Origin: Shigella phage MK-13
Direction: 5' to 3' (one strand)
Sequence record: MK509462
Length of the DNA: 64,000 nt
This document shows, one piece after another, positions 3,906 through 60,187 of this stretch. Position 1 is the stretch's first letter. Every line of letters starts with the position of its first letter. The notes under the pieces are model-generated. The model was given only the letters and a program-made list of their open reading frames with translations. It was not told the origin of the DNA and did no database searches. The position numbers and the translations under genes are program-made.

Positions 3906-3935
3906 TTTAAGTTCAGAAGCTGTTCAATAGATGAA

Positions 3936-3966
3936 GGGGCTGCTATAATAGCAGCTCCTTTTGTTT
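3936..3966 (+). terminator. Hairpin (ggggctgctat-a-atagcagctcc) followed by TTTTGTTTATT; terminator with a TATAAT hexamer in its loop
   Basis: About 11-bp stem and T-rich tail directly after the 3905 stop; loop sequence TATAAT. Confidence 0.5.
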
Positions 3967-3979
3967 ATTGGAGCAGTCT

Positions 3980-4642
3980 ATGTCCTACTCCCTCAAGGGG
4001 TTGCTCAAGCGCCCCGTCCACACATTCATTAAACCGCCTGTCGTAAAGGGGATCTACCCAGCACGAGGGCAACTCTATTACGTCAAAGGCTCCAATGGTA
4101 GCGGCAAATCCACCGTACCGTCTCAGCTGGCGGAGAGGGATCCTCAGGCGTATGTTGTGACACATGACGGCAAGATTATGTTGACGGTCTGCCCGTCATT
4201 CAACGTGGTGTGTATCGGCAAATATGACAAGTCAAAGTCCAAGGGGGTTGATTCCCTGAAGGATACTGAACAAATGCTCTTCGCCCTGAGCATCGCTGAT
4301 CTACCTGAATATCAGGTATACGATGTGATCTTCGAAGGCATTATCCCTTCAACTCTACTGAGTTCCTGGATCCCCCGCCTGACGCGCCCACCGCGCGAAC
4401 TGGTTGTTCTCTTCATGGACACCCCTCTTGAAACCTGCATCGCCCGTGTTAAATCACGTAACGGCGGTGCGGACTTCAATGAGAGCCTCGTGGTAGAGAA
4501 GTGGGAGCGTGTTCAAGACCATCGCCAGCGCCATAAAGGCTTGTTCCCTACGGTGGCCGCAGGTATGATGAAGTCTCACGGTCTAACAGTAGACCAGGCT
4601 GTAATGGCATTCCTCTGTCGTGATTTTGGGAGTATTGATTGA
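3980..4642 (+). CDS. P-loop kinase (Walker A GSNGSGKST); candidate nucleotide or DNA-base kinase
   Basis: ORF 3968..4642, ATG at 3980; Walker A motif near residue 40; stop overlaps the start of the ThyA-fold gene (TGATG). Confidence 0.55.
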   Translation: MSYSLKGLLKRPVHTFIKPPVVKGIYPARGQLYYVKGSNGSGKSTVPSQLAERDPQAYVVTHDGKIMLTVCPSFNVVCIGKYDKSKSKGVDSLKDTEQMLFALSIADLPEYQVYDVIFEGIIPSTLLSSWIPRLTRPPRELVVLFMDTPLETCIARVKSRNGGADFNESLVVEKWERVQDHRQRHKGLFPTVAAGMMKSHGLTVDQAVMAFLCRDFGSID

Positions 4643-5688
4643 TGGAAATCAAAGCAATTAACAACAATGACATGCTGAAGCAGGCTGTCTTGGCTATCCG
4701 CGAATACGGAATTGAATCTGATCCTGGTAATGCGGAGATCAACACCGACGGCACCCGATTCCTTGATGGTGTGACGATTACCGTGGATGATATCCGCAGC
4801 CGCTGGCTGTCTGTTGAAGGTCGTAACTCATCGGCTATCGCTGCCATCGGCGAGACCTTCTGGGTTCTGTCCGGGCGCGATGACGTTCGCTTCCTGTCCC
4901 GCGTGTTGCCCCGCGCCGCCAACTTTTCCGACAACGGCCACACATGGCGAGCCGCTTATGGTCCGCGTCTGTACGCCCATGGCCAGCTGGATAGCGTCAT
5001 CAACCGTCTGCGCAAGAACCCAAACACCCGTCAGGCGTACCTCACCATCTATGACCCGGCTCTGGATTCAGATGCTGGCCTGGCGAAGTTCAGCGAGAGC
5101 GGCGAAGCGAAGACTAAAGACATGGTGTGTAACCTGGCTCTGTTGTTCGCCATCGTTGAAGGTCGTCTGAACCTGACGGTCATCAACCGCTCACAGGATG
5201 TTCTGTGGGGTATGAGTTCAATCAACTTCATTGAGTTCTCTATTCTTCAGGAAGTGATTGCTCGGGTGCTGGGTGTTGATGTCGGCCAGTACAAGCTCTT
5301 CTCTAACAATCTTCATTACTACAACAATGAAGTCAGCCAGAAGCAGCTGGGCAAGATCACGAAGGACACCAAAGTAGAAGCTGGGTTCATCAACTCAATG
5401 ATTCACTTCAAGAACGTGACCAACCAGAACCATATCCGCAATCTGTTCACTGGTGTGCTTCATCACTGTGATATCGGTAGCCCGTGGGAAACTGTGGTCG
5501 CCCACCTGAAGGAATATGATGCTGATCGCGGCCTGATTGTACAGATGGCGTACTGCCTGTACTGCAAGCTGAACGACAAACTCATCAACATGAACCTGAT
5601 TCAGGATCATGGTTTGAACATTGCGCTCACCCATTCTCCAGTTGACCGCAAGATCGTTGATCCTAAGTTCCTGGAAGGTGTGGTATGA
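4642..5688 (+). CDS. Thymidylate synthase-fold enzyme, divergent; candidate pyrimidine (dUMP/dCMP) hydroxymethylase
   Basis: Divergent counterparts of ThyA motifs: RQAYLTIYDP (ThyA RRIIxSAWNP), Cys in DMVCNLALLF (catalytic-Cys region), NRSQDVLWGMSSINF (ThyA QRSxDxxLGxPFN); recognised from memory of family motifs. Confidence 0.6.
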   Translation: MEIKAINNNDMLKQAVLAIREYGIESDPGNAEINTDGTRFLDGVTITVDDIRSRWLSVEGRNSSAIAAIGETFWVLSGRDDVRFLSRVLPRAANFSDNGHTWRAAYGPRLYAHGQLDSVINRLRKNPNTRQAYLTIYDPALDSDAGLAKFSESGEAKTKDMVCNLALLFAIVEGRLNLTVINRSQDVLWGMSSINFIEFSILQEVIARVLGVDVGQYKLFSNNLHYYNNEVSQKQLGKITKDTKVEAGFINSMIHFKNVTNQNHIRNLFTGVLHHCDIGSPWETVVAHLKEYDADRGLIVQMAYCLYCKLNDKLINMNLIQDHGLNIALTHSPVDRKIVDPKFLEGVV

Positions 5689-6254
5689 TGTACCCGAACC
5701 TTGAATTCTTTACGGGGCGCAAGCGCTCCGGTAAGGACTTCTGTTTGGAGTCCCTCATCAGCTATCACCATCTACAGGGTGATATGGATATCCAGCGCCT
5801 TTCGTTCTCAGACGAACTGCGCCGGGTCGCCAACTACATTTACCCGTGGCTGCCAGCGGAGGTAGAGGATGCCGTGAAGGACGTTCCTTACGTCCACCCT
5901 GATAACCCCAAGGGCTTAACCCCACGGCAGATCTGGCTTCATCTCGGCAGCGATACGGGCTTGCGTTATGTACAGCCTGATCTGTTCCTGGCATTCTTTA
6001 AGCGCTTCCAGCTTCCTCTGGTGGAGCAGAACCCTCATGTACATTATATCGTGAGTGACCTGCGCACCCCTCAGGAATATGAATGGGCGCTGAGTACGAA
6101 ATGCCCTATCACCCGCATTTCAAAGGCCGACCGCGCTGGTATCATAGAGGACGATATAGAGGCTTTCATTGACAAGATGGAAGTGGACTACGAATTCCTC
6201 AATCCATTTGATGGTTGGGCACCGTTCGTTAAATTCTACGGAGAACGTAAATGA
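5685..6254 (+). CDS. Deoxynucleoside monophosphate kinase (T4 gene 1-like)
   Basis: N-terminus FFTGRKRSGKD matches T4 gp1 FLSGVKRSGKD; ATGA start/stop overlap with the upstream gene. Confidence 0.6.
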   Translation: MMYPNLEFFTGRKRSGKDFCLESLISYHHLQGDMDIQRLSFSDELRRVANYIYPWLPAEVEDAVKDVPYVHPDNPKGLTPRQIWLHLGSDTGLRYVQPDLFLAFFKRFQLPLVEQNPHVHYIVSDLRTPQEYEWALSTKCPITRISKADRAGIIEDDIEAFIDKMEVDYEFLNPFDGWAPFVKFYGERK

Positions 6255-6805
6255 TCACAGCAGGGCATATCAAAAGCCTGCTCGAACTCCAAAAGGCCAC
6301 CAACGTGGCCTACTTTGGGGAAGAGTGGAAGAATGTATGGAGTCAGAACGCAGTCATCAACTCCATCTATCGTGAATGGGCAGAGTTCCTTGACGAAACC
6401 AGCCGCGACTGGAAGGTCTATGGCAACGACGTCGGGTTTCACCATGCGAACGCAGTCTATGAACTGGTGGACGTGGTACACTTCATGCTGTGCTTCATCC
6501 TTATGGACCGCACCAAAGGCGAGATCGAAGAAGAATTCGAAATCCTCGGTGGCCGCGAATTCACCCCATCTGCTTTGGGTGCTGTTGGGCATCGCGGTGT
6601 GACGTATCGTCTTGGGCAGTTCATGAACGAACCTTGTGTCGAGACCCTCATGTTCTTCCTGTCGGCTGCGTGTTCTTACATGGAGATCGATATTGAGACC
6701 TACATGCTGGCGCACAAGCGCAAGAACGATCGCAATCGTCTGCGTGCTGCTGGCGGCGCGGATTACGACAAGTCCACAGAAACCCCTCTGACCCTGGAGT
6801 TCTAA
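6251..6805 (+). CDS. All-alpha NTP pyrophosphohydrolase-like protein (MazG/dimeric dUTPase-like); candidate dUTP/dTTP/dCTP pyrophosphatase
   Basis: Acidic motifs (REWAEFLDE, YELVDVVHF) typical of the MazG/HisE-like fold; ATGA overlap with the dNMP kinase gene. Confidence 0.4.
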   Translation: MITAGHIKSLLELQKATNVAYFGEEWKNVWSQNAVINSIYREWAEFLDETSRDWKVYGNDVGFHHANAVYELVDVVHFMLCFILMDRTKGEIEEEFEILGGREFTPSALGAVGHRGVTYRLGQFMNEPCVETLMFFLSAACSYMEIDIETYMLAHKRKNDRNRLRAAGGADYDKSTETPLTLEF

Positions 6806-7347
6806 TGTTTACAGTCGTCGTTTCATATCATGCAGACAACGCGGCGAACGCATCCGCTAATTTCGCCGAGCACATCATCGGCGGCGGTCATAATGTATTC
6901 ATCACTGAATACACCAGGCCTGTTAAACTGGGTGATGGTCTTTCGGCGACTGTCACGCATAAGATCGCCAGCGAGCAACCAGAGTCTCTGTTCAGGATGA
7001 TCGAAGAGTATGCCAGCGGTGGCGTCGAGATACCAGAGGAACTGGTGGACGTCTACTTCGAAGGTTCGATCTATTACATCCACGCCATGCCAAAGGATGT
7101 AACCATTGAACAGATGATGTATATCCTGAATATTGCGCTGAACGCTGCGTGCATCAACCGCACGAACTACAACAATCTGCGCAATATGTACCTAACCGAC
7201 CGACATAATGACGCACCGTCGCCTGTTGAGATGATGTCTCTGAAGAGCATCCAAGAGGCGATTAACATTTTGTCCCAGAAGGTTATGGGTGTAGAATTAT
7301 TAACGACGATCAACAATAAAGAGGAAGTGAAATGGCCAGTTCATTAA
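6805..7347 (+). CDS. Hypothetical protein
   Basis: 180 aa ORF; TAATG overlap with upstream gene. Confidence 0.45.
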   Translation: MFTVVVSYHADNAANASANFAEHIIGGGHNVFITEYTRPVKLGDGLSATVTHKIASEQPESLFRMIEEYASGGVEIPEELVDVYFEGSIYYIHAMPKDVTIEQMMYILNIALNAACINRTNYNNLRNMYLTDRHNDAPSPVEMMSLKSIQEAINILSQKVMGVELLTTINNKEEVKWPVH

Positions 7348-8417
7348 TGGACCGCATGCTGAAGGTTGCCAAGAAACATGACGACCAGGCTTCAGTGCTG
7401 TCCCAATCAGACGCTCTGGAACCGTCTATCATCTGTTCTACTGGTATTCCCCTGATCGACATCGCCTGGTCCGGGCGTATTGACGGCGGCCTGATCTCCG
7501 GTATCAAGATGATGGTGGGTGATTCCCGTACCTTCAAAACGATGTTCGGTCTGGTGGATGTCAAGGCGTACATGGACAAGTTCCCTGATGCTATTTGCGT
7601 CTTTGCGGACTCGGAAAAGGGTGCCAACGCCGACTACTGGACTTCCATGGGCATTGACATGGACCGCGTCCTGTACGTTCCGATTGACAACGTTGAGCAG
7701 ACCAAGATCCGCCTGCTGCAAATCCTTCAGGAAGTGAAGAAGGGTGACAAGGTCATCGTGTTTATCGACTCAATCAGCCAGTTGCCGTCTACCAAGGAAG
7801 TTGAAGATGCGATCAAAGGTAATGACACCCAAGACATGACTCGCGCCCGTGCCCTCAACAGCTTCTGGCGTGTCATCACCCCTGAAATCAACAGCAAAGA
7901 CCTCGTGTTGGTGTGGATCAACTCCTATTACGATGAGATCGGCAACCAGTATGCCGAGCCTAACATCAAAGGCGGCAAGCAGGGCTTCCTGTCGTCTAAC
8001 CTGATCTGGTTCATCACCCGTTCTCAGGTGAAGGAAGACAAAGATCTGTTGGGCTGGAACTTCAACATCGGCATCATGAAAGGCCGCCATGTCAAAGAGA
8101 AAGCCAAACTCCCTGTGACAGTGCTGTACGACGGCGGCATTGACCGTTGGAGCGGCCTGCTTGAGATCGCTCGTGCTCTGGGTTACGTTGATATGCCGTC
8201 TTCCGGCTGGTATGTGCGTACAGCCAAGGGCGGCTTCGATCCTGAGAAGGAAAAGAAATATCAGAAGCGTCAGATGGATGATGATTTCTGGTATCCGCTG
8301 CTGGAGAATGTCGACTTCGCCGATGACGTGAAGAAGATGTTCGGTGTTTCTAACGGTACTATTATGCCTGCGAACATGCTGGAGCAGATGGACCATGTTA
8401 TCAACACATCCGAGTGA
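7332..8417 (+). CDS. uvsX: UvsX RecA-like recombinase
   Basis: 361 aa; long collinear similarity to T4 UvsX (IPLIDIAWSGRIDGG..., VIVFIDSISQL..., DMTRARALNSFWRVITP..., YDGGIDRWSGLLEIARALGYV). Confidence 0.85.
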   Translation: MASSLMDRMLKVAKKHDDQASVLSQSDALEPSIICSTGIPLIDIAWSGRIDGGLISGIKMMVGDSRTFKTMFGLVDVKAYMDKFPDAICVFADSEKGANADYWTSMGIDMDRVLYVPIDNVEQTKIRLLQILQEVKKGDKVIVFIDSISQLPSTKEVEDAIKGNDTQDMTRARALNSFWRVITPEINSKDLVLVWINSYYDEIGNQYAEPNIKGGKQGFLSSNLIWFITRSQVKEDKDLLGWNFNIGIMKGRHVKEKAKLPVTVLYDGGIDRWSGLLEIARALGYVDMPSSGWYVRTAKGGFDPEKEKKYQKRQMDDDFWYPLLENVDFADDVKKMFGVSNGTIMPANMLEQMDHVINTSE

Positions 8418-8724
8418 CAACGGAGGGGGAGGCAACTCCCCCAATAACTACACAATCATCGACCCTGGTGCTGATCAGCTGGCGATCATCAAGATCACTT
8501 CTGGCAAATTCCGTGGCGTTCAATTCCGGTTCGGCAAGGTTGCCATCAACGAAGTGGACGGCGAACCCCGCCTGTCTTTCGTGACCGATATATTGAAGAA
8601 ACCATTACGTCTGATGTTTGTGAATTTGAAAGAAAATGACTTGTTCACTGAGGTGACAGGGGATATCCTTGTAACCCTCATGCAGCGTAATGCTCAGGAA
8701 TACAATAAATTTTTGGTGGGGTAG
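8395..8724 (+). CDS. Hypothetical protein (position equivalent to T4 gene 40 between uvsX and 41)
   Basis: ORF 8344..8724; start placed at ATG 8395 preceded by GGAG; overlaps the uvsX 3' end. Confidence 0.35.
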   Translation: MLSTHPSDNGGGGNSPNNYTIIDPGADQLAIIKITSGKFRGVQFRFGKVAINEVDGEPRLSFVTDILKKPLRLMFVNLKENDLFTEVTGDILVTLMQRNAQEYNKFLVG

Positions 8725-8730
8725 TTGCCA

Positions 8731-10158
8731 ATGTTACTCGAATCTGTCGTGCTTTCACAGTTGATTTACAATGAAGATTACCAAAGAAAGATCCTGCCGT
8801 ACCTGAAAGCCGATTATTTTGACAACGAAGGCGAAAAGGTCATCTTTGGCCTGATTGACAGTTATGCCTCAGAGTATAATGCCCGCCCGTCTATCGAAGC
8901 ACTGTCTATCATTCTTGAACGGACAAAGCTGAACGAATATGTGTTTGACCAGGCGGTATCTGCCCTGGAGAACATCAACGACAACACCTTCAATGAAGAG
9001 TGGCTGGCGAAGGAAACAGAGACCTGGGCGCGGCAAAAGGCTGTACATAACGCAATCAAGACCGCCGTCAACATCTATGGGGATGAGAAGCGCAAGGACG
9101 AGATGAACAACATCCCGACCCTGTTGCAGGAAGCCCTGGCGATCCGGTTTGATTCATACCTCGGCCACATCTATTGGGAGATGGCGGCAGAGCAGTATGA
9201 CCATATGAACTCCAACGAGGCCAAGATCCCGTTCGCGGTTGAGATCTTCAACAAGGCGACGCGCGGCGGCGTTGGTAAGAAGACACTGAACATCGTAACA
9301 GGCGCGATCAACGCAGGTAAGACCACAACGCTGATTGACCTGACCGCAGGGTACTCGGAGCAGGGGCTGAACGTCTTTGTATTCACCCTCGAAGTGGCCG
9401 AGAACGTCTGGCGACACCGTCTTGATGCCCGTATCATGCGTCGCGACTTTGAGTCTTTAGAGAAACTCACAAGGCACGAGTACATCGCCACGATAGAGAA
9501 GCTCCGCAGTCGCCAAGATGGTGCACCCAAGGGTGATATCGTCATCAAGGAATATCCGTCCGGCGCTGGGCACACAGGTTTATTCCGCCGCGACATCCTT
9601 GAGTATATCCAGGCGACAGGTCGCGCTCCTGATGTTATCGTTATTGACTATCTTGGTGAAGCTGCTTCCTCGCGCCTGCCTGCCCACCTGATGCAGAACA
9701 CGAACGTCTATTACACGTCTGTGGCTCGTGAGTTTCGTGCGCTGGGATTTGAGTTTGATGTTCCTGTTTGGACTGGTATGCAGTTCAACCGTGAGAATCA
9801 GAATAGCACGGATGGTGGAATCAGTGACCTGGCAGATGCTATCGGTATCCCGAAGGTGGCCGACTTCATCATGGCATTCTATGCTCCTGACGAACTGGCG
9901 GCGGTCAAGAAAGCCCGAGCCTCAATACTCAAGAACCGTTATGCCAACAAGCAAAAGCTGAAGTCATTCCTGTTTGGTATGGACCAAGACAAACAGATCC
10001 TGTTTGACCTGGACTGGAATGAAGTTAAGAAGGACCTGACTGAGGCTGAGGCCAAATATGTTGAGAATGTACACATCAAACATGACCTCAACAAGTCAGG
10101 TTCGGCGGCGAGCGATGAGCAGAAAGCCCAAACAGTCAATAATTGGAATTTCGGCTAA
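8731..10158 (+). CDS. Replicative DNA helicase (T4 gp41-like, DnaB family)
   Basis: Walker A GAINAGKTT; FDSYLGHIYWEMAAEQYDHMNSNEAKIPF closely parallels T4 gp41; ATG 8731 after a GG-rich RBS (track start 8725 is TTG). Confidence 0.85.
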   Translation: MLLESVVLSQLIYNEDYQRKILPYLKADYFDNEGEKVIFGLIDSYASEYNARPSIEALSIILERTKLNEYVFDQAVSALENINDNTFNEEWLAKETETWARQKAVHNAIKTAVNIYGDEKRKDEMNNIPTLLQEALAIRFDSYLGHIYWEMAAEQYDHMNSNEAKIPFAVEIFNKATRGGVGKKTLNIVTGAINAGKTTTLIDLTAGYSEQGLNVFVFTLEVAENVWRHRLDARIMRRDFESLEKLTRHEYIATIEKLRSRQDGAPKGDIVIKEYPSGAGHTGLFRRDILEYIQATGRAPDVIVIDYLGEAASSRLPAHLMQNTNVYYTSVAREFRALGFEFDVPVWTGMQFNRENQNSTDGGISDLADAIGIPKVADFIMAFYAPDELAAVKKARASILKNRYANKQKLKSFLFGMDQDKQILFDLDWNEVKKDLTEAEAKYVENVHIKHDLNKSGSAASDEQKAQTVNNWNFG

Positions 10159-10220
10159 ATTCAATATCGTGGGTCATAGGGTATAATTCTATGATCTGAA
10201 TGTTAAACCAGGAGCACATC

Positions 10221-12890: not shown

Positions 12891-12950
12891 TTCATTAAAC
12901 GATTCACCCCATATAATACATGGGAACTTACACAAACGAGGACCACACTA

Positions 12951-23516: not shown

Positions 23517-24026
23517 TTACTTGTCAGGGTTCACTAAAACAGGGGTGGATACCAGTTCGCCGTTCTTCACAGAATGCTGGACTACAGCACACTGATCGAC
23601 CATGCGATATACTTCAATTCCAGCAGCCAGCATTTCAATAATGCCGTCTGTGATTCGGTACGGTATATTGTAGATGACCTTCTTGATAGCGCAGCTTTTG
23701 ATTATCAGCTGAGTACAAACAGGGCATGGGCTGTGTGAGACGAACATCGTCAGATCAACGCGGTTGTCCAATGCTTCAGGGATGCGCATCAAAGCGTTCT
23801 CTTCTGCGTGGACAACCCCGACTGATACCAACTCACCGTCTACTTCCTGCTCACAGACATTAGGAGCGCCAGGAGCAGTCCCGTTCCAACCGATGGCAAC
23901 AGGTTGGTCGGTCTGTTCATCAACGATAACACAGCCGACCTTCAGGCGCCGAGCATAGCTGGACAGTGCATATGCATGAGCCGAGCGCATGTGCGCAAAC
24001 ATCATACGGGGCTTGATAGTCATCAC
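23517..24026 (-). CDS. dCMP deaminase (T4 cd-like)
   Basis: Zinc-binding cytidine/deoxycytidylate deaminase motifs HAEENA and SPCPVC. Confidence 0.75.
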   Translation of the reverse strand: MMTIKPRMMFAHMRSAHAYALSSYARRLKVGCVIVDEQTDQPVAIGWNGTAPGAPNVCEQEVDGELVSVGVVHAEENALMRIPEALDNRVDLTMFVSHSPCPVCTQLIIKSCAIKKVIYNIPYRITDGIIEMLAAGIEVYRMVDQCAVVQHSVKNGELVSTPVLVNPDK

Positions 24027-45939: not shown

Positions 45940-47172
45940 TCAGCGTTTCAAGAGTGCCATGAGGTTGACGCTGCTGGGCTTCGACTTGTCTTCAGGCTTG
46001 ACAGCTGTCTTCGGGCGTTCACACACCTCAGATGGTTCCCAGCGCGTACCCTTTTGCAGGTGCCAAATGTGCAGAGGGATGCCAGTATCAAAGAACACAG
46101 GCATCTTCCACTTCTGGACGCCTGGAACGTGCCCTGCAGGAGCCTTTTCGCATAACAGGGTATCTGGTAACCAGAGTGAACGGGCTTCCCAGAGCGCTGC
46201 ACAGGAGTACTCCGGCCAGATGCGTTCCATGTAGTCGATCTCATCCCAGGTACGCTCGGCATCCCACCCAATGTAACGGGTATTCTTCTCACGGAAGAAC
46301 TTCTTCAGCCAGCATGCACCGGAGGTTTCAAAGTTCAGGCGATTGATGAACGTCAGATGCCCGAACTCAGCCACGCATTCCTTGAACGCCTGTTCAAGGT
46401 CGGCCTCAAGGATGTCACACTCTTCATCAGTGATAGGACAACCATTGATCTTTTTCTTCCCATGCTTGGTCACCCAATCATCACGGTTGGACAAGAACGC
46501 CGCGCCGTTGCGGTTGGACTCGCTGCCATCACGATCACGCAGCATGAAGCCAGGGACGTCGATATCCCACATATTGCCAAACACCATGTTCAGAGCTTCC
46601 AGGAAGTTCCAGGCGCTCAGGCGGCCGAAGTATTTCCAGGACATCGCCGTTTCCCACAACTTAGTGAACTGGTCGCCCTGGGGCTTGGTCTCCAACATCG
46701 GTCGGAATGCTTCCATCTGGGAGCGCCCTGCCAGCCAGTCAATGTAGGACTGAACACATGGGATCATCTTCGACTTGCGATAGCGGCAGTCGGTATCGAA
46801 GCGCATGCGCTCAAAGTTCAGGTTGTACCAATCAGAGAAGCGCTGCATCTCTTCTTTGGACTGAGGGGGTACAGGGAACTCACTGTAGATTGTCCATGGA
46901 CCGATGGCGTTGTAACAGCAGCCCCAAAGGAATGCCATCCAGATTTTGCGCTCGATCTTCTCAAGCTGCGTGATGCCTTCTGTGACTTCGATCGCATAAT
47001 CCATCAGACGCATCTGCTGGTTGTGCTCTTCGGTGTAGGACAGCGCCTCCACCCAAGCCTTGAGCAGGTACATGCGATTCTCAGGCTTGCGATAATCAAC
47101 AGCCAGGTCAATCGGGTACTTCCATTCAGCCGGGGGTGTATAGCCCGTCGGCATTTTAGATAGATGCGTCAT
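45940..47172 (-). CDS. Large conserved-looking hypothetical protein (Trp/Cys-rich); candidate enzyme of the nucleotide/DNA-modification module
   Basis: 410 aa with no recognisable motif; sits between the kinase/HAD genes and the small-protein cluster. Confidence 0.45.
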   Translation of the reverse strand: MTHLSKMPTGYTPPAEWKYPIDLAVDYRKPENRMYLLKAWVEALSYTEEHNQQMRLMDYAIEVTEGITQLEKIERKIWMAFLWGCCYNAIGPWTIYSEFPVPPQSKEEMQRFSDWYNLNFERMRFDTDCRYRKSKMIPCVQSYIDWLAGRSQMEAFRPMLETKPQGDQFTKLWETAMSWKYFGRLSAWNFLEALNMVFGNMWDIDVPGFMLRDRDGSESNRNGAAFLSNRDDWVTKHGKKKINGCPITDEECDILEADLEQAFKECVAEFGHLTFINRLNFETSGACWLKKFFREKNTRYIGWDAERTWDEIDYMERIWPEYSCAALWEARSLWLPDTLLCEKAPAGHVPGVQKWKMPVFFDTGIPLHIWHLQKGTRWEPSEVCERPKTAVKPEDKSKPSSVNLMALLKR

Positions 47173-47708: not shown

Positions 47709-48626
47709 TCACCCCTTCTTCATCAGGTCAAGGAGAGAGCGCGACGCTGCCTTCGGTGCTTCCGGCTGGGCACTCGCCTTGGTTTTAGTTTTAGATGCCT
47801 TCTGCGGCTTCTCAGGCACTCTGTGCGCCAAAGGATCATTACCGCCGACCTCACGGGTCATCGGATTGGTTTCGCAGTAGGCGTAGAAGTCTTTGGTGTG
47901 CATGTCAACATCGCGCAGTTCAGAGCGTGTCTGATGACAAATCGCATTACCCACAACCCACAGCGGGGCGTCGTATGGGAGCACCGCCAACTCGGACTGC
48001 TGTTTGGTCGTGAACTCCTGGGTGTTGGCCTCTGGTGCTTTATACAGGATATCCTGTCCGCTGTAATCATCAACAGCCACAGTGAAGCCCAGCGTCAACA
48101 TTTCGGTCTTCGATTTCTCAAACTCCTTGGAGTAAGATTCGTTGCGCGACCAGCCGGAGTCCCCTGCTTCTTTACCAGAGCGACCACGGATGCGGGCATC
48201 GTACTGATAGCGGTCGGGGTACGCAAAGTACAGCAGCGCCAATGATTCAATCGGATAATTCTTGAACATCCACTCAGGACGCCATTTGTCCGACAGCATG
48301 AGGGGTTCGCCCTCGCACACCAGAGTGTAACCCTGCGCCAGCCAGCCCTTGACCAGATCACGGGCGATATCACCCGAGCCTGTGGCAGCATGAATGGCGT
48401 CCATGGAAGTCCAGGAAGCCAGGCCGGATTTGTTGGACACAGTGTACTGGCCGACGAAGATCAACTTCAGCTCTTCGAATTTCAGGCCAAACGGGCGCGT
48501 CTTATCACCAATGGTGTAGGTGAGTTCGGTAGGCTCCAGCTTCGTACGGAGCCATTCGATGAACTGTACAACACGAGTACCCTTACCCGTGCCGCTGGTT
48601 CCTTTGATTACGATGATCTTTGCCAT
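47709..48626 (-). CDS. P-loop kinase with adenylate/NMP-kinase-type Walker A (GTSGTGKGT)
   Basis: N-terminal KIIVIKGTSGTGKGTRV resembles the GxPGxGKGT P-loop of NMP kinases; 305 aa. Confidence 0.45.
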   Translation of the reverse strand: MAKIIVIKGTSGTGKGTRVVQFIEWLRTKLEPTELTYTIGDKTRPFGLKFEELKLIFVGQYTVSNKSGLASWTSMDAIHAATGSGDIARDLVKGWLAQGYTLVCEGEPLMLSDKWRPEWMFKNYPIESLALLYFAYPDRYQYDARIRGRSGKEAGDSGWSRNESYSKEFEKSKTEMLTLGFTVAVDDYSGQDILYKAPEANTQEFTTKQQSELAVLPYDAPLWVVGNAICHQTRSELRDVDMHTKDFYAYCETNPMTREVGGNDPLAHRVPEKPQKASKTKTKASAQPEAPKAASRSLLDLMKKG

Positions 48627-48940: not shown

Positions 48941-49720
48941 CTATCGGACGTATTGATAATGACCAATCAAGCGGTTCACCACTTCAACAATATTGTGATT
49001 CAGGAAGTCGAAGTGGTTCTGGCCTTCTACTGGTTTAATATAAAGCATATCTTCCGAGTTCGAAAGATCCAGTTTTTCATAATTGCCCTGAGGAACAAAG
49101 ATGACGAAGATATTGTTCAGGCCGCACGGCTCAACATACTTCGGATTGTCATCAATCAAGACATCGCCTGCCAGCAGATGCTTTTCGTCAGTACTGACAA
49201 ATCCGTTGAAGATACCAGGGAACTTGTCGTAGACAAACTGGCGCTTGCTGCGCTCGTGTTCCGGCTCACACTTGGACACTGCGATGAATTCAACATTGTC
49301 AAAGTCTTCGAGCAGAATCTTCTTCAGATTCACCAGGAACTCGTAAGCACCAGGAAGCGGGTTCATCTTGGCGTACAGGTCAGGGCGACGCCACCAGTCC
49401 ATAGGATCACGCCCTGTAGGAGCATACATCCATTGCCCAGCGAGGTACACGCGGCGTATCAACCACGCCGGATGTGCACGTTCTCGCATCAGAATAGCCA
49501 GGTCGCCAGCATGAGCCATATAGCACTCTTTGGTGATCGGCTGGAACTGATATGACTTATGTTCCCCCGTAGCAATAGCAGCGGCAGCGATGTTCTCTTC
49601 GTTGAACCACTGCACCCAAGGGGAGAGGCTGTCGACCAGCGTCAGGTCAACATCCACGAGGACGCGATACAGACCACCGACCTTTGATTTCATATCATAG
49701 AGACAGACCAGGTTGTTCAT
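48941..49720 (-). CDS. HAD-superfamily phosphatase-like protein (possible 5'(3')-deoxyribonucleotidase or polynucleotide phosphatase)
   Basis: HAD motif I-like VLVDVDLTLVDS near the N-terminus. Confidence 0.4.
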   Translation of the reverse strand: MNNLVCLYDMKSKVGGLYRVLVDVDLTLVDSLSPWVQWFNEENIAAAAIATGEHKSYQFQPITKECYMAHAGDLAILMRERAHPAWLIRRVYLAGQWMYAPTGRDPMDWWRRPDLYAKMNPLPGAYEFLVNLKKILLEDFDNVEFIAVSKCEPEHERSKRQFVYDKFPGIFNGFVSTDEKHLLAGDVLIDDNPKYVEPCGLNNIFVIFVPQGNYEKLDLSNSEDMLYIKPVEGQNHFDFLNHNIVEVVNRLIGHYQYVR

Positions 49721-50094: not shown

Positions 50095-50124
50095 ATTATA
50101 TCCCCCTTTGGTTTATTGAATCAA
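50095..50124 (-). promoter_or_regulatory. Sigma70-like promoter (-35 TTGATT, 18-nt spacer, -10 TATAAT inside a GGGGG/CCCCC hairpin) upstream of the lipoprotein gene
   Basis: Minus strand aaggTTGATTcaataaaccaaagggggaTATAATtccccc; overlaps the polymerase stop; approximate coordinates. Confidence 0.45.
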
Positions 50125-53120
50125 CCTTTCTTCTTTTGCATCATGGCAAGAAGGTTCACACGACGCTTGTGTGACCAGCCGACCACGTCAAGGATGGACT
50201 GAATCGGGTCGATGAAGGACTTCTCAAAGGCTGTGTGGTAATCCACCCATTTACCCATACCCAGTTCCTCGGGGAAGAACTCAGGATATGCGAAGTAATT
50301 CTGGCCAAACGGGTTGCCATTCTTCAGCAGTACCATGTTGACCTTATCACCCGACTCAATCATTGGCAGGCCGAGGTCTTCGTTCTTCTCAACCAGACGG
50401 TTGTAACCCACACAAGCCTTGGCAGCGTAGTGAGCACCAGAGATGAACGAGCCGTCGGCGGCCACACACTTCTCTATGTCGGACACACCGGATGCCTTGG
50501 CGATATCGTCTACAGAGAGCTTCATGTACTCCTCTTTGTACTGGGAGATGAGCGTCTGTACTTCCTCTTCTGTGCCGAGCAGGATCTTCTCATAGCACTT
50601 GACAAGGCGCTCACGACACCATTCCGGCGTGGTGGACTTACGGGCTTCCAGACCTTTGAACTTGATCTTCGGCTTCTCGTACTTGATACCCTCACTGTCG
50701 TACACGGCCATGGCATACATCTTCTTGGCTCGCCAGACGGCAGCTGATGCAATTACTTCACGCTCCCACACCATGCGCTGTTCAAATCCGTTCATGGTGT
50801 TACACAGAAGCTGTGCCCACTCATTGGTCTTCGGCTGGTAGTTGTCTTTGATCCATTGGTCGATATTATCAACCATAGCATGATGGTCAGTAACATCAGG
50901 CCACAACTGCTTGACAAGACGCTCAATGCAGATGTAGTTGGAGTCGGTATCACCCGCGATGACGAAGTCCTGGCCTGTCGTGCCGCACAGCTTGTTCAGA
51001 TAGTCATCGGTGTAGCGCTTGTTCCACTTGTTGATCAGCTGACCGGACGTTGTGATGGCTTCGGCGATGTTGAGGTTGAAGTACTCTTTGAACCAGACGT
51101 TTGAGATCGCGCCATAGCCCGCGTTCATCAAGATCTTCAGACCTTGCTGTAGGGTCTCTTGAGCAACGCCCAGATCTTCCCACTTCTTCATCACTTCGGT
51201 CAGTGCATCAAGATCGATGTTCTTGTGCTCTTCATACCACTCTGGATCGTAGTAGCGGGACTTCATCGCAGACTCAAGATGGAAGTCACCCTTCGACATC
51301 TCTTTACACCATCCAGCCCACTGCTCGTACTTCAGCCCCTTGGCTTTCTCTACTTTACGGTCGCTGTAGATGCCGCGCATGATTTCAGACAGGAACGACA
51401 TCTTCTCGTTGCTGAAGAACTGAACGTTCGGCGTGAAGGACACGTTGTAGCGGCGCAGGGTTTCAAAGTGGAACTCACCCAGGGCAACCAGTTCATCAAC
51501 AACCTGCAGGCGTTCGTCAATCGCACGCAACAGCTTATCGTGAAGGGCTTTCATCAACCGACGTTTGTGCATCGGTGTTGCCATGTTATTCATCTGAGCA
51601 GCCAGCTCTTCACACATAGCCTCAATGATCTCACGGCGCTGGTGTTTGTCGCCAACGATAGTCTCAGGACCGAGGTTGTATTGCTGGATGATGTGAGGGT
51701 AGAGGGAGTTCAAGTCCTCAGAGAAGACCCAGAAGTAGATTCCTGGTGTCACCTCCATGACGTATGCGCCCTCAAAATCGGTCGGACCATCGTATACACG
51801 CTGGATCTTAGGCACTATCCCCTTCTCATACAGACGATAGTAGCACATGGCCAGCCACGGAGCCACAGTTCCCAGGCCGTCTTCATAGTTGGACTTGGTG
51901 CGGTACGCAAGGACGAACATCAGCTGAAGCAAACGCAGCTTCTGTTCTAGACGCCACACCAGCTTGACGTCCTTGATACCATATCGGGTGTGTTTGGCAT
52001 AGTCGTTGAAGTACAGGTCAAAGAGCGACTTGCTCTCACTGTAGTCCATCTTCTTCTCACCCAGCTCACAGTAAGCAATCCAGTCAAGAGAGTAGCGCTC
52101 ACGGGTGGTGTACGTGTGCTTCTTGTAGATCTGCATATAATCGAGCATAGGACAGCCCACGAACTGATACGTCGTGATATCGCCCTTCTTATCGCGAATG
52201 ATACGCTTCTTGATGACACCCCATGGGCTGAGGCGGTTGGTTTCGGCTTCGCCCAGTACCTGGTTCATGCGCTCAACAAGATACGGGCTATCGAACGTTT
52301 CAATGTTCCAGCCTGTCCAGCCGTCGAACTGACGCTGTGACCAGAAGTCAAGGAAAGATCGCAGCAGATCCTGCTCGGTGACAAACTCCTTGTACTCCAC
52401 CTCAAGTCCACCGATCTCCGCGTCTTCTGGATCGTATCTGAACTTCGCACGATCCTTCGCGCACGGCATACCCCACACCATGAACTTATTGGTCGCCATG
52501 TCCTGAAGCTGGATAAGCGTGATAGGGAACGCCGCATTCATGTCCTGGGTGATCTTGCCATTGCTATCAATGATAGGGAACTGGTCGGTCACGTTGTTGC
52601 TGATAAAGGAACTGGGGAAGTGCTCACGGATGAAGTCATGGTTGGCCAGTACCTGCTGATGGAAGCGGCGGATGCGTGCCTCGCTACCTTTGAACGTCTG
52701 CTGCTCAATAGTCGGATGAGGGAATGGACCCTTGGTCATCTCCCCATCTTTCCACCCGGCGGTGAACACTTCGATATCGAGGTTGGCGATATGGATATTG
52801 GAGTAATCCGGCTCGATCTTCCCAGGAAAGCTGTGGGCGATGAACTGGTATGCATAATCGGTCTGCCCGTAAATGGCTGCACCCTGGACTTCCTTATACT
52901 CCTCAAGGTAGTTGTCGGCAGTGCGCATGTCAGGGAACTTCTTAGAGACCAGGGGTTCGTTGAGCAAGCCGACCTTTTCAACATTTGAATAATCAGCCGT
53001 GGGTAAATAGAGAGTGGGTTCGAATTTCTTTTTCAACAGACGGCGATTACCCATGTCATCTGCGATTCGAATCAACAGGTCATTGCCCCGGCGGGCAACG
53101 TTCGTATAGAAAACGGTCAT
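50121..53120 (-). CDS. DNA polymerase, family B (T4 gp43-like)
   Basis: 999 aa; motif C IAGDTDSNYI, exonuclease and polymerase regions collinear with T4 gp43. Confidence 0.9.
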   Translation of the reverse strand: MTVFYTNVARRGNDLLIRIADDMGNRRLLKKKFEPTLYLPTADYSNVEKVGLLNEPLVSKKFPDMRTADNYLEEYKEVQGAAIYGQTDYAYQFIAHSFPGKIEPDYSNIHIANLDIEVFTAGWKDGEMTKGPFPHPTIEQQTFKGSEARIRRFHQQVLANHDFIREHFPSSFISNNVTDQFPIIDSNGKITQDMNAAFPITLIQLQDMATNKFMVWGMPCAKDRAKFRYDPEDAEIGGLEVEYKEFVTEQDLLRSFLDFWSQRQFDGWTGWNIETFDSPYLVERMNQVLGEAETNRLSPWGVIKKRIIRDKKGDITTYQFVGCPMLDYMQIYKKHTYTTRERYSLDWIAYCELGEKKMDYSESKSLFDLYFNDYAKHTRYGIKDVKLVWRLEQKLRLLQLMFVLAYRTKSNYEDGLGTVAPWLAMCYYRLYEKGIVPKIQRVYDGPTDFEGAYVMEVTPGIYFWVFSEDLNSLYPHIIQQYNLGPETIVGDKHQRREIIEAMCEELAAQMNNMATPMHKRRLMKALHDKLLRAIDERLQVVDELVALGEFHFETLRRYNVSFTPNVQFFSNEKMSFLSEIMRGIYSDRKVEKAKGLKYEQWAGWCKEMSKGDFHLESAMKSRYYDPEWYEEHKNIDLDALTEVMKKWEDLGVAQETLQQGLKILMNAGYGAISNVWFKEYFNLNIAEAITTSGQLINKWNKRYTDDYLNKLCGTTGQDFVIAGDTDSNYICIERLVKQLWPDVTDHHAMVDNIDQWIKDNYQPKTNEWAQLLCNTMNGFEQRMVWEREVIASAAVWRAKKMYAMAVYDSEGIKYEKPKIKFKGLEARKSTTPEWCRERLVKCYEKILLGTEEEVQTLISQYKEEYMKLSVDDIAKASGVSDIEKCVAADGSFISGAHYAAKACVGYNRLVEKNEDLGLPMIESGDKVNMVLLKNGNPFGQNYFAYPEFFPEELGMGKWVDYHTAFEKSFIDPIQSILDVVGWSHKRRVNLLAMMQKKKG

Positions 53121-60177: not shown

Positions 60178-60187
60178 ATTTGGTCTA

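What the first reader, a model, noticed from the sequence alone, without database searches (positions are those of the whole stretch)
3980..6805. Translationally coupled operon: P-loop kinase, divergent ThyA-fold enzyme, dNMP kinase, NTP pyrophosphatase - candidate thymidine hypermodification pathway
Four genes are chained by TGATG/ATGA stop-start overlaps (4640-4644, 5685-5688, 6251-6254) and run into uvsX and the helicase. The ThyA-fold protein keeps the catalytic-Cys context but diverges from canonical thymidylate synthase motifs, as expected for a pyrimidine hydroxymethylase. From established knowledge of phages with hypermodified thymidine, a dUMP hydroxymethylase plus a P-loop kinase acting on 5-hydroxymethyl-dU (with dNMP kinase and dUTP/dTTP pyrophosphatase support) is the core of such pathways. 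dCMP deaminase (23517..24026) would feed dUMP into it.
Basis: partly seen in the sequence, partly recalled or inferred. Interest (0 to 1): 0.8.

Follow-up and report, generated by a model that had tools for sequence, protein, structure and literature searches.

The report
Known phage thymidine hypermodification operon

Summary
Four genes (3980-4642, 4642-5688, 5685-6254, 6251-6805) are chained by TGATG/ATGA overlaps.

The interpretation also holds:
- Gene 1 matches Pfam 5-hmdU DNA kinase (PF18748) at 3e-107 and is 87.7% identical to ViI gp67, which has been tested biochemically.
- Gene 2 has a thymidylate synthase fold but fails every curated thymidylate synthase model. It groups with the ΦW-14, SPO1-type and M6 dUMP hydroxymethylases.
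- Genes 3 and 4 are a T4 gp1-type dNMP kinase and a dimeric-dUTPase-family NTP pyrophosphatase.

The same window also holds orthologs of ViI gp247 (serine:DNA transferase, 90%), gp243 (second kinase, 86%) and gp226 (PLP decarboxylase, 91%). It also has a dCMP deaminase, an NT5C-like nucleotidase and the DNA polymerase.

The window is 97-98% identical to Agtrevirus phages ChubbyThor, SKML-39 and Ag3. Lee et al. 2018 list SKML-39 and Ag3 as 5-HMUDK phages, and papers on PP35 and SW16-7 make the same gene assignments.

Verdict: correct, already known, low interest. The only gap is that 5-NeOmdU has not, in the papers I found, been measured chemically in Agtrevirus DNA.

The parts
3919..3977 (+). 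Conserved intergenic hairpin. Its upper part plus the U-run is terminator-like, and its lower 3' arm covers the kinase Shine-Dalgarno sequence (GGAG 3970-3973).
   Evidence: MFE -33.2 kcal/mol, z -5.98, with 0 of 200 shuffles as stable. Terminator-like site at 3933-3961. Conserved in Limestonevirus, Kuttervirus and Taipeivirus, and rebuilt with different bases in Miltonvirus.
3923..3949 (+). Promoter-like motif TTCAAT-N15-TATAAT, with the -10 element lying in the hairpin loop. It is the likely start of the transcription unit.
   Evidence: It is a near match to the family-specific regulatory motif TTCAAT[N14]TATAAT reported for Ackermannviridae (PMC7283392). Similar sites lie in other intergenic gaps of the window. 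Function is inferred, not shown.
3980..4642 (+). 5-hmdU DNA kinase (5-HMUDK, ortholog of ViI gp67). It phosphorylates 5-hydroxymethyl-dU within DNA.
   Evidence: PF18748 at 3e-107, covering 1-195 of 196 profile positions. Walker A GSNGSGKS at residues 37-44. 87.7% identical to ViI gp67 and 100% to Ag3 orf00067.
4642..5688 (+). dUMP hydroxymethylase, a thymidylate synthase superfamily enzyme that makes 5-hmdUMP.
   Evidence: PF00303 at 9e-16 and phrog_3676 at 1e-183. Fails the NCBIfam TS equivalogs. Best solved homolog is MilA CMP hydroxymethylase at 1e-18. ΦW-14 HMase hits at 2e-45. Active-site alignment A1.
5685..6254 (+). dNMP kinase of the T4 gp1 type. Inferred reaction: 5-hmdUMP to 5-hmdUDP.
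   Evidence: phrog_139 at 5.7e-47. GRKRSGKD P-loop shared with T4 gp1. 31% identity, 4e-18, to ΦW-14 gp231, which follows that phage's HMase. 92% identical to ViI dnk.
6251..6805 (+). All-alpha NTP pyrophosphatase of the dimeric dUTPase family. Inferred to be a dUTPase, and possibly a dTTPase, that supplies dUMP.
   Evidence: PF08761 at 32.1 bits against a cutoff of 22.9, and phrog_173 at 5.5e-40. Nearest solved structure is the C. jejuni dimeric dUTPase 1w2y. EWAE and ELVD metal-binding-type motifs.
6805..7347 (+). ACT-like phage protein of unknown function.
   Evidence: PF24021 at 1.2e-80 and phrog_3839. Found in 268 phage records, all enterobacterial Ackermannviridae by name except two outliers, always between dUTPase and uvsX in the rows listed. 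Only 57-58% identical to its ViI counterpart.
7332..8417 (+). UvsX recombinase (context, same transcription unit).
   Evidence: phrog_97 at 1.4e-95, plus RecA and T4_UVSX_C domains.
8725..10158 (+). gp41-type replicative helicase (context, last gene before the next promoter-like motif at 10160-10187).
   Evidence: phrog_19 at 1.8e-102 and DnaB_C. Motif.
23517..24026 (-). dCMP deaminase, which supplies dUMP.
   Evidence: PF00383 at 5.3e-18. HAE at residue 73 and PCPVC at residue 100.
45940..47172 (-). Amino acid:DNA transferase (ADDT, also called aGPT-Pplase2, ortholog of ViI gp247). It transfers serine onto 5-phosphomethyl-dU.
   Evidence: PF18724 at 2.1e-61. 90.3% identical to ViI gp247.
47709..48626 (-). 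Second 5-hmdU DNA kinase (HMUD2, ortholog of ViI gp243).
   Evidence: PF18747 at 7.1e-161. 85.5% identical to ViI gp243.
48941..49720 (-). NT5C-like 5'-deoxynucleotidase, a candidate dTMPase.
   Evidence: PF06941 at 1.8e-8. DVDLT HAD motif at residues 23-27. 78.8% identical to ViI Vi01_194. The role is inferred by analogy with hmU phages.
50121..53120 (-). Family B DNA polymerase, which would incorporate 5-hmdUTP.
   Evidence: PF03104 and PF00136, each at 1.7e-16.
56458..57756 (-). PLP-dependent decarboxylase (ortholog of ViI gp226). It converts O-serinyl-thymidine to 5-NeOmdU.
   Evidence: 90.7% identical to ViI gp226. The lysine equivalent to ViI K92 is conserved in an identical context. The PALP match is weak, 31.3 bits and below the cutoff of 35.

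Best explanation
The window comes from an Agtrevirus (Ackermannviridae, ViI-like) phage. Region 3980-6805 is the front end of the published 5-NeOmdU thymidine hypermodification pathway.

Before replication (inferred by homology):
1. The dCMP deaminase (23517-24026) and the dUTPase-family pyrophosphatase (6251-6805) supply dUMP.
2. The ThyA-fold enzyme (4642-5688) adds a hydroxymethyl group from methylene-tetrahydrofolate to give 5-hmdUMP instead of dTMP.
3. The dNMP kinase (5685-6254) and the host NDP kinase convert it to 5-hmdUTP.
4. The phage family-B polymerase (50121-53120) incorporates it into DNA.

After replication (shown for the ViI orthologs, inferred here):
5. The P-loop kinase (3980-4642) and its paralog (47709-48626) phosphorylate the hydroxymethyl group of 5-hmdU in DNA.
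6. The amino acid:DNA transferase (45940-47172) replaces the phosphate with serine through its side-chain oxygen.
7. The PLP enzyme (56458-57756) decarboxylates the product to 5-(2-aminoethoxy)methyl-dU.

The result is DNA in which part of the thymine (16-40% in measured relatives) carries a positively charged side chain that blocks many restriction enzymes. The five coupled genes, uvsX and the helicase are probably transcribed as one unit from a family-type promoter at 3923-3949.
For: Family assignments: PF18748 at 3e-107, PF00303, PF08761, phrog_139 and phrog_173; PF18724, PF18747, PF00383 and PF06941.

Orthology to the ViI proteins used in reconstitution: gp67 87.7%, gp247 90.3%, gp243 85.5%, gp226 90.7%. 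The operon has the same gene order as in ViI.

Catalytic motifs are intact: Walker A, catalytic Cys, Asn at the uracil-specifying position, the PLP lysine, and HAE/PCxxC.

The HMase groups with proven dUMP hydroxymethylases and not with TS.

Biochemistry of the ViI enzymes and LC-MS of ViI, CBA120 and CBA6 DNA: PMC5889632 and PMC8989533. A Taipeivirus was measured at 16.4% 5-NeOmdU (bioRxiv 10.64898/2026.05.19.726188).

SKML-39 and SboM-AG3, which are 97-98% identical to the window, are listed as 5-HMUDK phages in PMC5889632. The fifth gene, gp160 (aGPT-Pplase1), is present in Agtrevirus and Limestonevirus genomes at 79-84% identity.
Against: I found no direct chemical measurement of virion DNA from any Agtrevirus or Limestonevirus. 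PMC6336734 says the structure and ratio are 'yet to be determined' for PP35.

I found no direct assay of the Ackermannviridae HMase, dNMP kinase or dUTPase-family protein in the papers I read. Their substrates are inferred from SPO1 and ΦW-14 precedents.

The HMase C-terminal region (52% identical to ViI) and the pyrophosphatase (62-65%) are much more diverged than the post-replicative enzymes.

gp160 is not in this window.

The Asn177 equivalence rests on an alignment with a one-residue indel in that loop.
Confidence: 0.9

Rival explanations
1. This is an ordinary dTTP-supply operon: a true thymidylate synthase plus a thymidylate kinase, as many GenBank records annotate these genes, with no base modification.
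For: ChubbyThor and several Dickeya phages label the genes 'putative thymidylate kinase' and 'putative thymidylate synthase'. Pfam PF00303 is matched above its cutoff.
Against: The kinase matches PF18748 at 3e-107, while thymidylate-kinase-type hits are marginal (phrog_761 at 8e-6). It is the ortholog of ViI gp67, which phosphorylates DNA.

The ThyA-fold protein scores 18-59 bits against NCBIfam TS equivalogs whose cutoffs are 108-427. It has Asn in place of His147, a changed Trp80/Trp83 region, and a C-terminal extension of about 100 residues in place of the TS C-terminus. E. coli ThyA does not detect it by tblastn.

The window also carries ADDT, HMUD2 and the PLP decarboxylase, which have no role in plain dTTP synthesis.
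Confidence: 0.03
2. The phage stops at 5-hydroxymethyl-uracil DNA, as older Ackermannviridae literature states. The operon would then be an SPO1-type hmU pathway without hypermodification.
For: Several papers still describe the family as HMdU-substituted (PMC10791037).
Against: The interval itself starts with a 5-hmdU DNA kinase. The window holds orthologs of the serine:DNA transferase and the PLP decarboxylase at 90-91% identity with catalytic residues intact. In every relative measured, the final base is 5-NeOmdU and no 5-hmdU remains in virion DNA (PMC5889632, PMC8989533; bioRxiv 2026).
Confidence: 0.04
3. The ThyA-fold enzyme is a dCMP hydroxymethylase, as in T4, and the phage modifies cytosine.
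For: The closest solved structure by sequence is a cytidylate hydroxymethylase, MilA (1e-18).
Against: The specificity position carries Asn, as in TS and all dUMP HMases aligned, and not the Asp of T4 gp42 and MilA. The match to T4 gp42 is weak (7e-4), against 2e-45 for the ΦW-14 dUMP HMase. The phage encodes a dCMP deaminase that destroys dCMP. The ViI-group nucleoside profiles listed dC among the canonical peaks.
Confidence: 0.01
4. Gene 3980-4642 is the small terminase subunit, as RefSeq and PHROG 800 label it.
For: phrog_800, 'terminase small subunit', at 6e-70. RefSeq uses this label in ViI, SKML-39, Ag3 and many others.
Against: The protein has a Walker A P-loop and matches the 5-hmdU DNA kinase profile end to end. 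ViI gp67 is an experimentally proven kinase. ViI has a separate small terminase, Vi01_162c, directly upstream of its large terminase. The 511-position PHROG profile is matched only over positions 4-220. That would fit a family containing kinase fusions such as SP10 gp186, whose two halves PMC5889632 lists as kinase and aGPT-Pplase. That last link is my inference.
Confidence: 0.01

Closest known systems
Salmonella phage ViI (Vi01) / E. coli phage CBA120 5-NeOmdU pathway (Lee et al. 2018 PNAS, PMC5889632; Lee et al. 2021 NAR, PMC8989533)
   Same: The operon has the same order: kinase, HMase, dNMP kinase, dUTPase-family gene, ACT-like gene, uvsX, helicase. Orthologs of gp67, gp243, gp247 and gp226 are 85-91% identical. 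The same family promoter motif and hairpin lie upstream of the kinase.
   Different: The subfamily differs (Aglimvirinae against Cvivirinae). The HMase is only 76% identical overall (core 86%, C-terminal region 52%). The pyrophosphatase is 62-65% identical and the ACT-like protein 57-58%. I found no chemical measurement of the DNA for this genus.
Agtrevirus / Limestonevirus phages Ag3, SKML-39, ChubbyThor, SW16-7, PP35
   Same: 96.8-98.1% nucleotide identity over 3900-7400 for the Agtrevirus phages and about 91% for the Dickeya phages. The kinase is 100% identical to Ag3 orf00067. The same gene assignments have been published for PP35 (PMC6336734) and SW16-7 (PMC10458263).
   Different: Essentially nothing at the level of this finding. 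The window is another isolate of the same genus.
Delftia phage ΦW-14 (alpha-putrescinylthymine) and Bacillus hmU phages of the SPO1/SP8 type
   Same: They share a dUMP hydroxymethylase of the same clade (ΦW-14 42% identity, 2e-45; SPO1-type 34%, 2e-29). ΦW-14 keeps HMase, dNMP kinase and dUTPase adjacent in that order. The pre-replicative logic is the same: dCMP deaminase, dUTPase/dTTPase, dTMPase (PMC8989533).
   Different: SPO1-type phages stop at 5-hmdU. ΦW-14 attaches putrescine and not serine. The 5-HMUDK gene is not next to the HMase in ΦW-14 (gp37 against gene 230).
T4 dCMP hydroxymethylase (gp42), dNMP kinase (gp1) and dCTPase logic
   Same: Same strategy: a TS-fold hydroxymethylase, a dedicated dNMP kinase with a GxKRSGKD P-loop, and an NTP pyrophosphatase that feeds the monophosphate pool and excludes the normal base (the last point is established knowledge).
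   Different: The base is different (C against U/T). Sequence similarity is only marginal (gp42 7e-4, gp1 3e-3). T4 modifies by glucosylation and not by phosphorylation and amino-acid transfer.
MilA, CMP 5-hydroxymethylase of mildiomycin biosynthesis (PDB 5b6d, 5jnh)
   Same: It is the best-scoring solved structure (1e-18 over residues 50-249). It is a hydroxymethylase with a TS core and extra C-terminal sequence.
   Different: It acts on a ribonucleotide and on cytosine. It has Asp and not Asn in the specificity loop. It is bacterial secondary metabolism and not a phage enzyme.

Membership tests
5-hmdU DNA kinase (5-HMUDK, Pfam PF18748 HMUDK_HMUD1) | Full-length profile match above the curated cutoff | tested here: met
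   357 bits against a cutoff of 27, E 3e-107, profile positions 1-195 of 196.
5-hmdU DNA kinase (5-HMUDK, Pfam PF18748 HMUDK_HMUD1) | P-loop (Walker A) NTPase motif | tested here: met
   GSNGSGKS at residues 37-44.
5-hmdU DNA kinase (5-HMUDK, Pfam PF18748 HMUDK_HMUD1) | Orthology to a biochemically validated member, in the same genomic position | tested here: met
   87.7% identity over all 220 residues to ViI gp67 (YP_004327432), in the same position upstream of the HMase. Activity of gp67: PMC8989533.
5-hmdU DNA kinase (5-HMUDK, Pfam PF18748 HMUDK_HMUD1) | ATP-dependent phosphorylation of 5-hmdU within DNA | not testable with these tools
   Needs an assay of purified protein on 5-hmdU DNA (for example SP8 DNA) with LC-MS or 32P transfer.
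dUMP hydroxymethylase (thymidylate synthase superfamily) | TS fold with the catalytic Cys and nucleotide-binding residues | tested here: met
   PF00303 at 58.2 bits against a cutoff of 24.3. E58, Y94, R126, C146, R166, S167, D169, H207 and Y209 (E. coli numbering) are invariant in alignment A1.
dUMP hydroxymethylase (thymidylate synthase superfamily) | Uracil-specifying Asn (E. coli N177) and not the Asp of cytosine-specific enzymes | tested here: met
   Asn is present in the window protein and in the ViI, ΦW-14, SPO1-type and M6 enzymes. This rests on an alignment with a one-residue insertion in the loop and was not checked in 3D.
dUMP hydroxymethylase (thymidylate synthase superfamily) | Closer to proven dUMP hydroxymethylases than to TS or dCMP hydroxymethylase | tested here: met
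   ΦW-14 2e-45, M6 4e-32, SPO1-type 2e-29. RB69 td 5e-9, E. coli ThyA no hit, T4 gp42 7e-4.
dUMP hydroxymethylase (thymidylate synthase superfamily) | Product is 5-hmdUMP, made without oxidising the folate | not testable with these tools
   Needs an enzyme assay.
Canonical thymidylate synthase ThyA (EC 2.1.1.45) | Score above the curated equivalog cutoffs | tested here: not met
   Seven NCBIfam TS equivalogs score 18-59 bits against cutoffs of 108-427.
Canonical thymidylate synthase ThyA (EC 2.1.1.45) | His147, the Trp80/Trp83 region and the short TS C-terminus that closes over the cofactor | tested here: not met
   His147 is replaced by Asn. IWDEW is replaced by PRAANF. The C-terminus is replaced by an extension of about 100 residues (348 aa against 264).
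T4 gp1-type dNMP kinase (PHROG 139) | Profile match and the characteristic GxKRSGKD P-loop | tested here: met
   phrog_139 at 5.7e-47. GRKRSGKD against T4 gp1 GVKRSGKD. 31% identity, 4e-18, to ΦW-14 gp231. There is no Pfam or NCBIfam model, so no curated cutoff.
T4 gp1-type dNMP kinase (PHROG 139) | Phosphorylates 5-hmdUMP | not testable with these tools
   Inferred from the hmU-phage precedent (PMC8989533).
Dimeric dUTPase / all-alpha NTP pyrophosphatase (Pfam PF08761) | Profile match above cutoff and acidic metal-binding motifs | tested here: met
   32.1 bits against a cutoff of 22.9. EWAE at 42-45 and ELVD at 71-74 align to the C. jejuni dUTPase 1w2y. It does not reach the NCBIfam dUTPaseEpsil equivalog cutoff (27.8 against 300).
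Dimeric dUTPase / all-alpha NTP pyrophosphatase (Pfam PF08761) | Substrate is dUTP and/or dTTP | not testable with these tools
   GenBank labels vary (dUTPase, dCTP pyrophosphatase, NTP-PPase). No assay found.
ViI-type 5-NeOmdU hypermodification system | Presence of the five genes that reconstituted 5-NeOmdU (two kinases, two aGPT-Pplases, one PLP enzyme) | tested here: inconclusive
   Four of the five are in the window at 85-91% identity. gp160 (aGPT-Pplase1) has no match in the window. It is present in related Agtrevirus and Limestonevirus genomes at 79-84%, so it probably lies outside these 64 kb.
ViI-type 5-NeOmdU hypermodification system | 5-NeOmdU replaces part of dT in virion DNA | not testable with these tools
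   Measured in ViI, CBA120, CBA6, 1.255.O and φHS2. I found no measurement for Agtrevirus.
Small terminase subunit (RefSeq / PHROG 800 label for 3980-4642) | Terminase small subunit identity and position next to the large terminase | tested here: not met
   It is a P-loop kinase by profile and motif. ViI has a separate TerS, Vi01_162c, adjacent to TerL. The label appears to be a propagated annotation error.

The most novel reading that the evidence does not exclude
The pathway has parts whose roles are unexplained: the ACT-like protein translationally coupled to the nucleotide operon (6805-7347), the second DNA kinase (47709-48626) and aGPT-Pplase1 (outside the window). Those parts might account for a step described as unsolved for ΦW-14 and SP10, namely how 5-hmdU that is not hypermodified becomes plain thymine. 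They might also set what fraction of sites is modified. One version has the ACT-like protein acting as a small-molecule sensor for this operon's enzymes. My evidence does not test any of this.
Probability: 0.1. Interest if true: 0.5.

Novelty: already known. Interest (0 to 1): 0.15.

Why it matters
For the scan, it matters mainly as a calibration point. A reader working from raw sequence correctly recognised a thymidine hypermodification pathway, but the pathway was published in 2018-2021 and has already been mapped onto near-identical phages.

Three things have some practical value:
1. Public annotation of this operon is often wrong. The DNA kinase is widely labelled 'terminase small subunit' or 'thymidylate kinase', and the hydroxymethylase is labelled 'thymidylate synthase'.
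2. Ackermannviridae are used in phage therapy and biocontrol, and modified DNA affects restriction evasion, sequencing and cloning.
3. In the papers I searched, the chemistry has not been measured directly for the Aglimvirinae subfamily, so a single LC-MS run would close a small gap.

Tried and rejected
- Structure prediction of the ACT-like protein from a single sequence gave pLDDT 39.9 and pTM 0.33, too poor for a fold search, so none was run. I ran no further search on building an alignment for a side issue.
- Sequence searches of solved structures found no homolog for the 5-HMUDK beyond generic P-loop hits, none for the dNMP kinase and none for the ACT-like protein.
- NCBIfam has no model for 5-HMUDK, HMUD2, ADDT, the PLP enzyme or the dNMP kinase.
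- PADLOC gave no hits for any pathway protein, as expected for counter-defence genes.
- The generic sigma-70 and terminator scan found no more sites than in shuffles, 7 against 6.6 and 9 against 6.6. Only the 3933-3961 hairpin stood out, and the family-specific motif had to be found by hand.
- The EcoSal review of hypermodified DNA (PMC11163837) is not held.
- I considered and rejected four readings, listed under rival explanations: an ordinary dTTP operon, an hmU-only phage, a dCMP hydroxymethylase, and a small terminase.
- I did not use the metagenome or genome collection scans, the large protein searches or the RNA-family tools. The annotated phage collection and the literature already answered the question.

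Full report
**What is in the sequence.** ATG 3980, preceded by GGAG at 3970-3973, opens a 220-aa ORF that ends at TGA 4640-4642. That stop shares its A with ATG 4642 (TGATG). The 348-aa ORF 4642-5688 overlaps the next start by ATGA at 5685-5688. The 189-aa ORF 5685-6254 overlaps the next by ATGA at 6251-6254. The 184-aa ORF 6251-6805 ends in TAA 6803-6805.

This last stop shares a base with ATG 6805 of a fifth ORF (6805-7347, 180 aa), and uvsX (7332-8417) overlaps that fifth gene by 16 nt. By synteny with ChubbyThor gp89, a small ORF then precedes the helicase (8725-10158).

Stop/start overlaps are common in this genome. In a crude gene set, 20 of 72 same-strand neighbour pairs can have a 1- or 4-nt overlap. 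The junctions alone are therefore weak evidence, although the run of four from 3980 to 7347 is the longest in the window.

**What the proteins are.**
- Gene 1 matches Pfam PF18748 (5-hmdU DNA kinase) end to end at 3e-107 and has a Walker A motif, GSNGSGKS.
- Gene 2 matches the thymidylate synthase superfamily model (PF00303, 9e-16). It scores only 18-59 bits against seven NCBIfam TS equivalogs whose cutoffs are 108-427.
- Gene 3 matches PHROG 139, dNMP kinase, at 5.7e-47. It shares the GxKRSGKD P-loop with T4 gp1 and is 31% identical (4e-18) to the kinase that follows the ΦW-14 hydroxymethylase.
- Gene 4 matches the dimeric dUTPase family (PF08761, above cutoff; phrog_173 at 5.5e-40). It has ExxE and ExxD motifs that align to the C. 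jejuni dUTPase.
- Gene 5 is PF24021, 'phage ACT-like domain', of unknown function.

**The ThyA-fold enzyme in detail.** I aligned it with E. coli ThyA, RB69 td, T4 gp42, and the ViI, ΦW-14, SPO1-type and M6 homologs.
- Residues kept: Glu58, Tyr94, Arg126, Cys146, Arg166, Ser167, Asp169, His207 and Tyr209 (E. coli numbering).
- The window protein and all the dUMP-hydroxymethylase homologs have Asn at the position aligned with Asn177, which specifies uracil. That loop has a one-residue insertion.
- Features that differ from TS: His147 becomes Asn, the Trp80/Trp83 segment is changed, and about 100 extra C-terminal residues replace the TS C-terminus.
- The best solved homolog is MilA, a CMP hydroxymethylase, at 1e-18. 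The best TS scores 4e-10, and E. coli and L. casei TS score about 1e-5.
- Searching the window with reference proteins gives ΦW-14 HMase 2e-45, M6 4e-32, SPO1-type 2e-29 and RB69 td 5e-9. E. coli ThyA finds nothing. T4 gp42 reaches 7e-4 only in a direct pairwise comparison.
- No other ThyA-fold gene exists in the window.

**Where the window comes from.** Over 3900-7400 the window is 98.1% identical to Shigella phage ChubbyThor, 98.0% to Salmonella phage SKML-39, 96.8% to Shigella phage Ag3 (all Agtrevirus, Ackermannviridae) and about 91% to the Dickeya Limestonevirus phages. The kinase is 100% identical to Ag3 orf00067 and 88.6% identical to the CBA120 ortholog.

**Relation to the characterised system.** In Salmonella phage ViI the genes have the same order: kinase Vi01_061c (the papers' gp67), thyA, dnk, dUTPase, an uncharacterised gene, uvsX, a small gene, and the gp41 helicase.

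Identities between window and ViI proteins:

| Protein | Identity to ViI |
|---|---|
| kinase (gp67) | 87.7% |
| HMase | 76% |
| dNMP kinase | 92% |
| pyrophosphatase | 62-65% |
| ACT-like protein | 57-58% |

The rest of the pathway is also in the window, on the other strand:
- ADDT / aGPT-Pplase2 (45940-47172): PF18724 at 2e-61, 90.3% identical to gp247.
- HMUD2 (47709-48626): PF18747 at 7e-161, 85.5% identical to gp243.
- PLP enzyme (56458-57756): 90.7% identical to gp226, with the lysine equivalent to K92 conserved.
- NT5C-like nucleotidase (48941-49720), with a DVDLT motif.
- Family-B DNA polymerase (50121-53120).
- dCMP deaminase (23517-24026), with HAE and PCPVC motifs.

Only gp160 (aGPT-Pplase1) has no match in the window. 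It is present in other Agtrevirus and Limestonevirus genomes at 79-84% identity, so it presumably lies outside these 64 kb.

**What is already published.**
- Lee et al. 2018 (PMC5889632) found that ViI, CBA120, CBA6 and a Vibrio phage replace about 40% of dT with 5-NeOmdU. They reconstituted the base from lysates expressing gp67, gp160, gp226, gp243 and gp247, and noted that 5-HMUDK co-occurs with a dUMP hydroxymethyltransferase. Their table of 5-HMUDK phages lists SKML-39 and SboM-AG3.
- Lee et al. 2021 (PMC8989533) showed with purified proteins that gp67 and gp243 phosphorylate 5-hmdU in DNA, that gp247 transfers serine, and that gp226 decarboxylates. They also describe the pre-replicative roles of dUMP hydroxymethylase, dNMP kinase, dTTPase, dTMPase and dCMP deaminase.
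- The PP35 paper (PMC6336734) and the SW16-7 paper (PMC10458263) map the same genes in Limestonevirus and Agtrevirus genomes.
- A 2024 review says the genes are conserved across the family (PMC11721090).
- A 2026 preprint measured 16.4% 5-NeOmdU in a Taipeivirus.
- I found no direct measurement for Agtrevirus or Limestonevirus. The PP35 paper says the structure and ratio remain to be determined.

**Mechanism, and what is shown versus inferred.** The steps are as set out under the best explanation.
- Shown for orthologs that are 85-91% identical: DNA kinase activity, serine transfer and decarboxylation.
- Inferred from more distant homologs (SPO1 and ΦW-14 precedents): hydroxymethylation of dUMP, phosphorylation of 5-hmdUMP, dUTP/dTTP hydrolysis and dTMP removal.
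- Inferred from sequence only: a single transcription unit from about 3950 to 10158.
- Unknown: the role of the ACT-like protein, why there are two kinases and two aGPT-Pplases, and how the remaining 5-hmdU becomes thymine. Lee 2018 states this last point is unknown for ΦW-14 and SP10.

**Side observations.**
- The 74-nt gap upstream of the kinase folds into a hairpin of about 27 bp (-33.2 kcal/mol, z -6). Its top looks like an intrinsic terminator and its base covers the kinase Shine-Dalgarno sequence. It is almost invariant in Limestonevirus, Kuttervirus and Taipeivirus, and rebuilt with different bases in Miltonvirus.
- The hairpin contains TTCAAT-N15-TATAAT, a near match to the family motif TTCAAT[N14]TATAAT (PMC7283392). 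Similar motifs precede other genes in the window.
- The hydroxymethylase gene is mosaic across the family. A Kuttervirus (BPS5) carries an allele 96% identical to the window's, while its flanking kinase (88.6%), pyrophosphatase (63%) and ACT-like gene (58%) are at normal inter-subfamily distance. ViI and BPS5, both Kuttervirus, differ by 23% in this one protein.

**Verdict.** Interest is low.

Noticed in passing
window 3919-3977 (+), with the motif at 3923-3949: A very stable hairpin of about 27 bp (-33.2 kcal/mol, z -6) lies between the upstream gene and the kinase start. Its top is terminator-like, its 3' base covers the kinase Shine-Dalgarno sequence, and a TTCAAT-N15-TATAAT promoter-like motif has its -10 element in the loop. 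It is nearly invariant in four genera and rebuilt with compensatory bases in Miltonvirus. Transcripts starting inside it would free the ribosome-binding site, whereas read-through transcripts would sequester it. I recall a similar arrangement for some T4 genes, but I did not test this.
   Followed up: partly
window 10160-10187 (+), 12891-12917 (+), 16374-16399 (+), 50120-50095 (-), 34528-34503 (-): More copies of the TTCA(A/T/C)T-N14-16-TATAAT motif. The + strand sites and the 50120 site lie in gaps just upstream of genes, and several have the -10 element in the loop of a short hairpin. This matches the family regulatory motif reported in PMC7283392.
   Followed up: partly
window 3980-4642 and its orthologs in RefSeq records (e.g. 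NC_015296 Vi01_061c, NC_019910, NC_013693): The experimentally proven 5-hmdU DNA kinase family is labelled 'terminase small subunit' in RefSeq and in PHROG 800, and 'thymidylate kinase' in other records. ViI has a separate true small terminase next to its large terminase. This looks like a propagated annotation error.
   Followed up: yes
window 4642-5688 compared with L018 (Kuttervirus BPS5) and L004 (ViI): The hydroxymethylase gene is mosaic across subfamilies. BPS5, a Kuttervirus, has an allele 96% identical to this Agtrevirus one, while its neighbouring genes are 58-89% identical. ViI and BPS5 differ by 23% in this protein alone. The divergence is concentrated in the C-terminal region of about 108 residues (52% against 86% for the catalytic core). 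This suggests allelic exchange of the gene between subfamilies.
   Followed up: partly
window 6805-7347 (+): An ACT-like phage protein (PF24021) is translationally coupled to the pyrophosphatase gene. It was found in 268 phage records, all enterobacterial Ackermannviridae by name except two outliers, and lies between dUTPase and uvsX in every row listed. It evolves fast (57% identity to ViI, about 41% to Taipeivirus). Its function is unknown, and a single-sequence structure model was unusable (pLDDT 39.9).
   Followed up: partly
window 48941-49720 (-): An NT5C-like 5'-deoxynucleotidase with an intact DVDLT motif sits between the second DNA kinase and the DNA polymerase gene. It is a candidate for the dTMPase activity known from hmU phages. 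I did not see it mentioned in the pathway papers I read.
   Followed up: partly
window 59787-61019 (-): A cluster of four tRNA genes: Ile-GAT, Tyr-GTA, Asn-GTT and Ser-TGA. The closest relative, ChubbyThor, is annotated with Asn, Tyr and Ser-GCT at the corresponding place, so the tRNA set differs between near-identical phages.
   Followed up: no
L012 12726-13589 (ViI Vi01_131c), outside the window: In ViI, the aGPT-Pplase1 gene (gp160) lies next to a MazG-like pyrophosphatase gene. This is a second NTP pyrophosphatase associated with the pathway. Neither gene has a match in this window.
   Followed up: no
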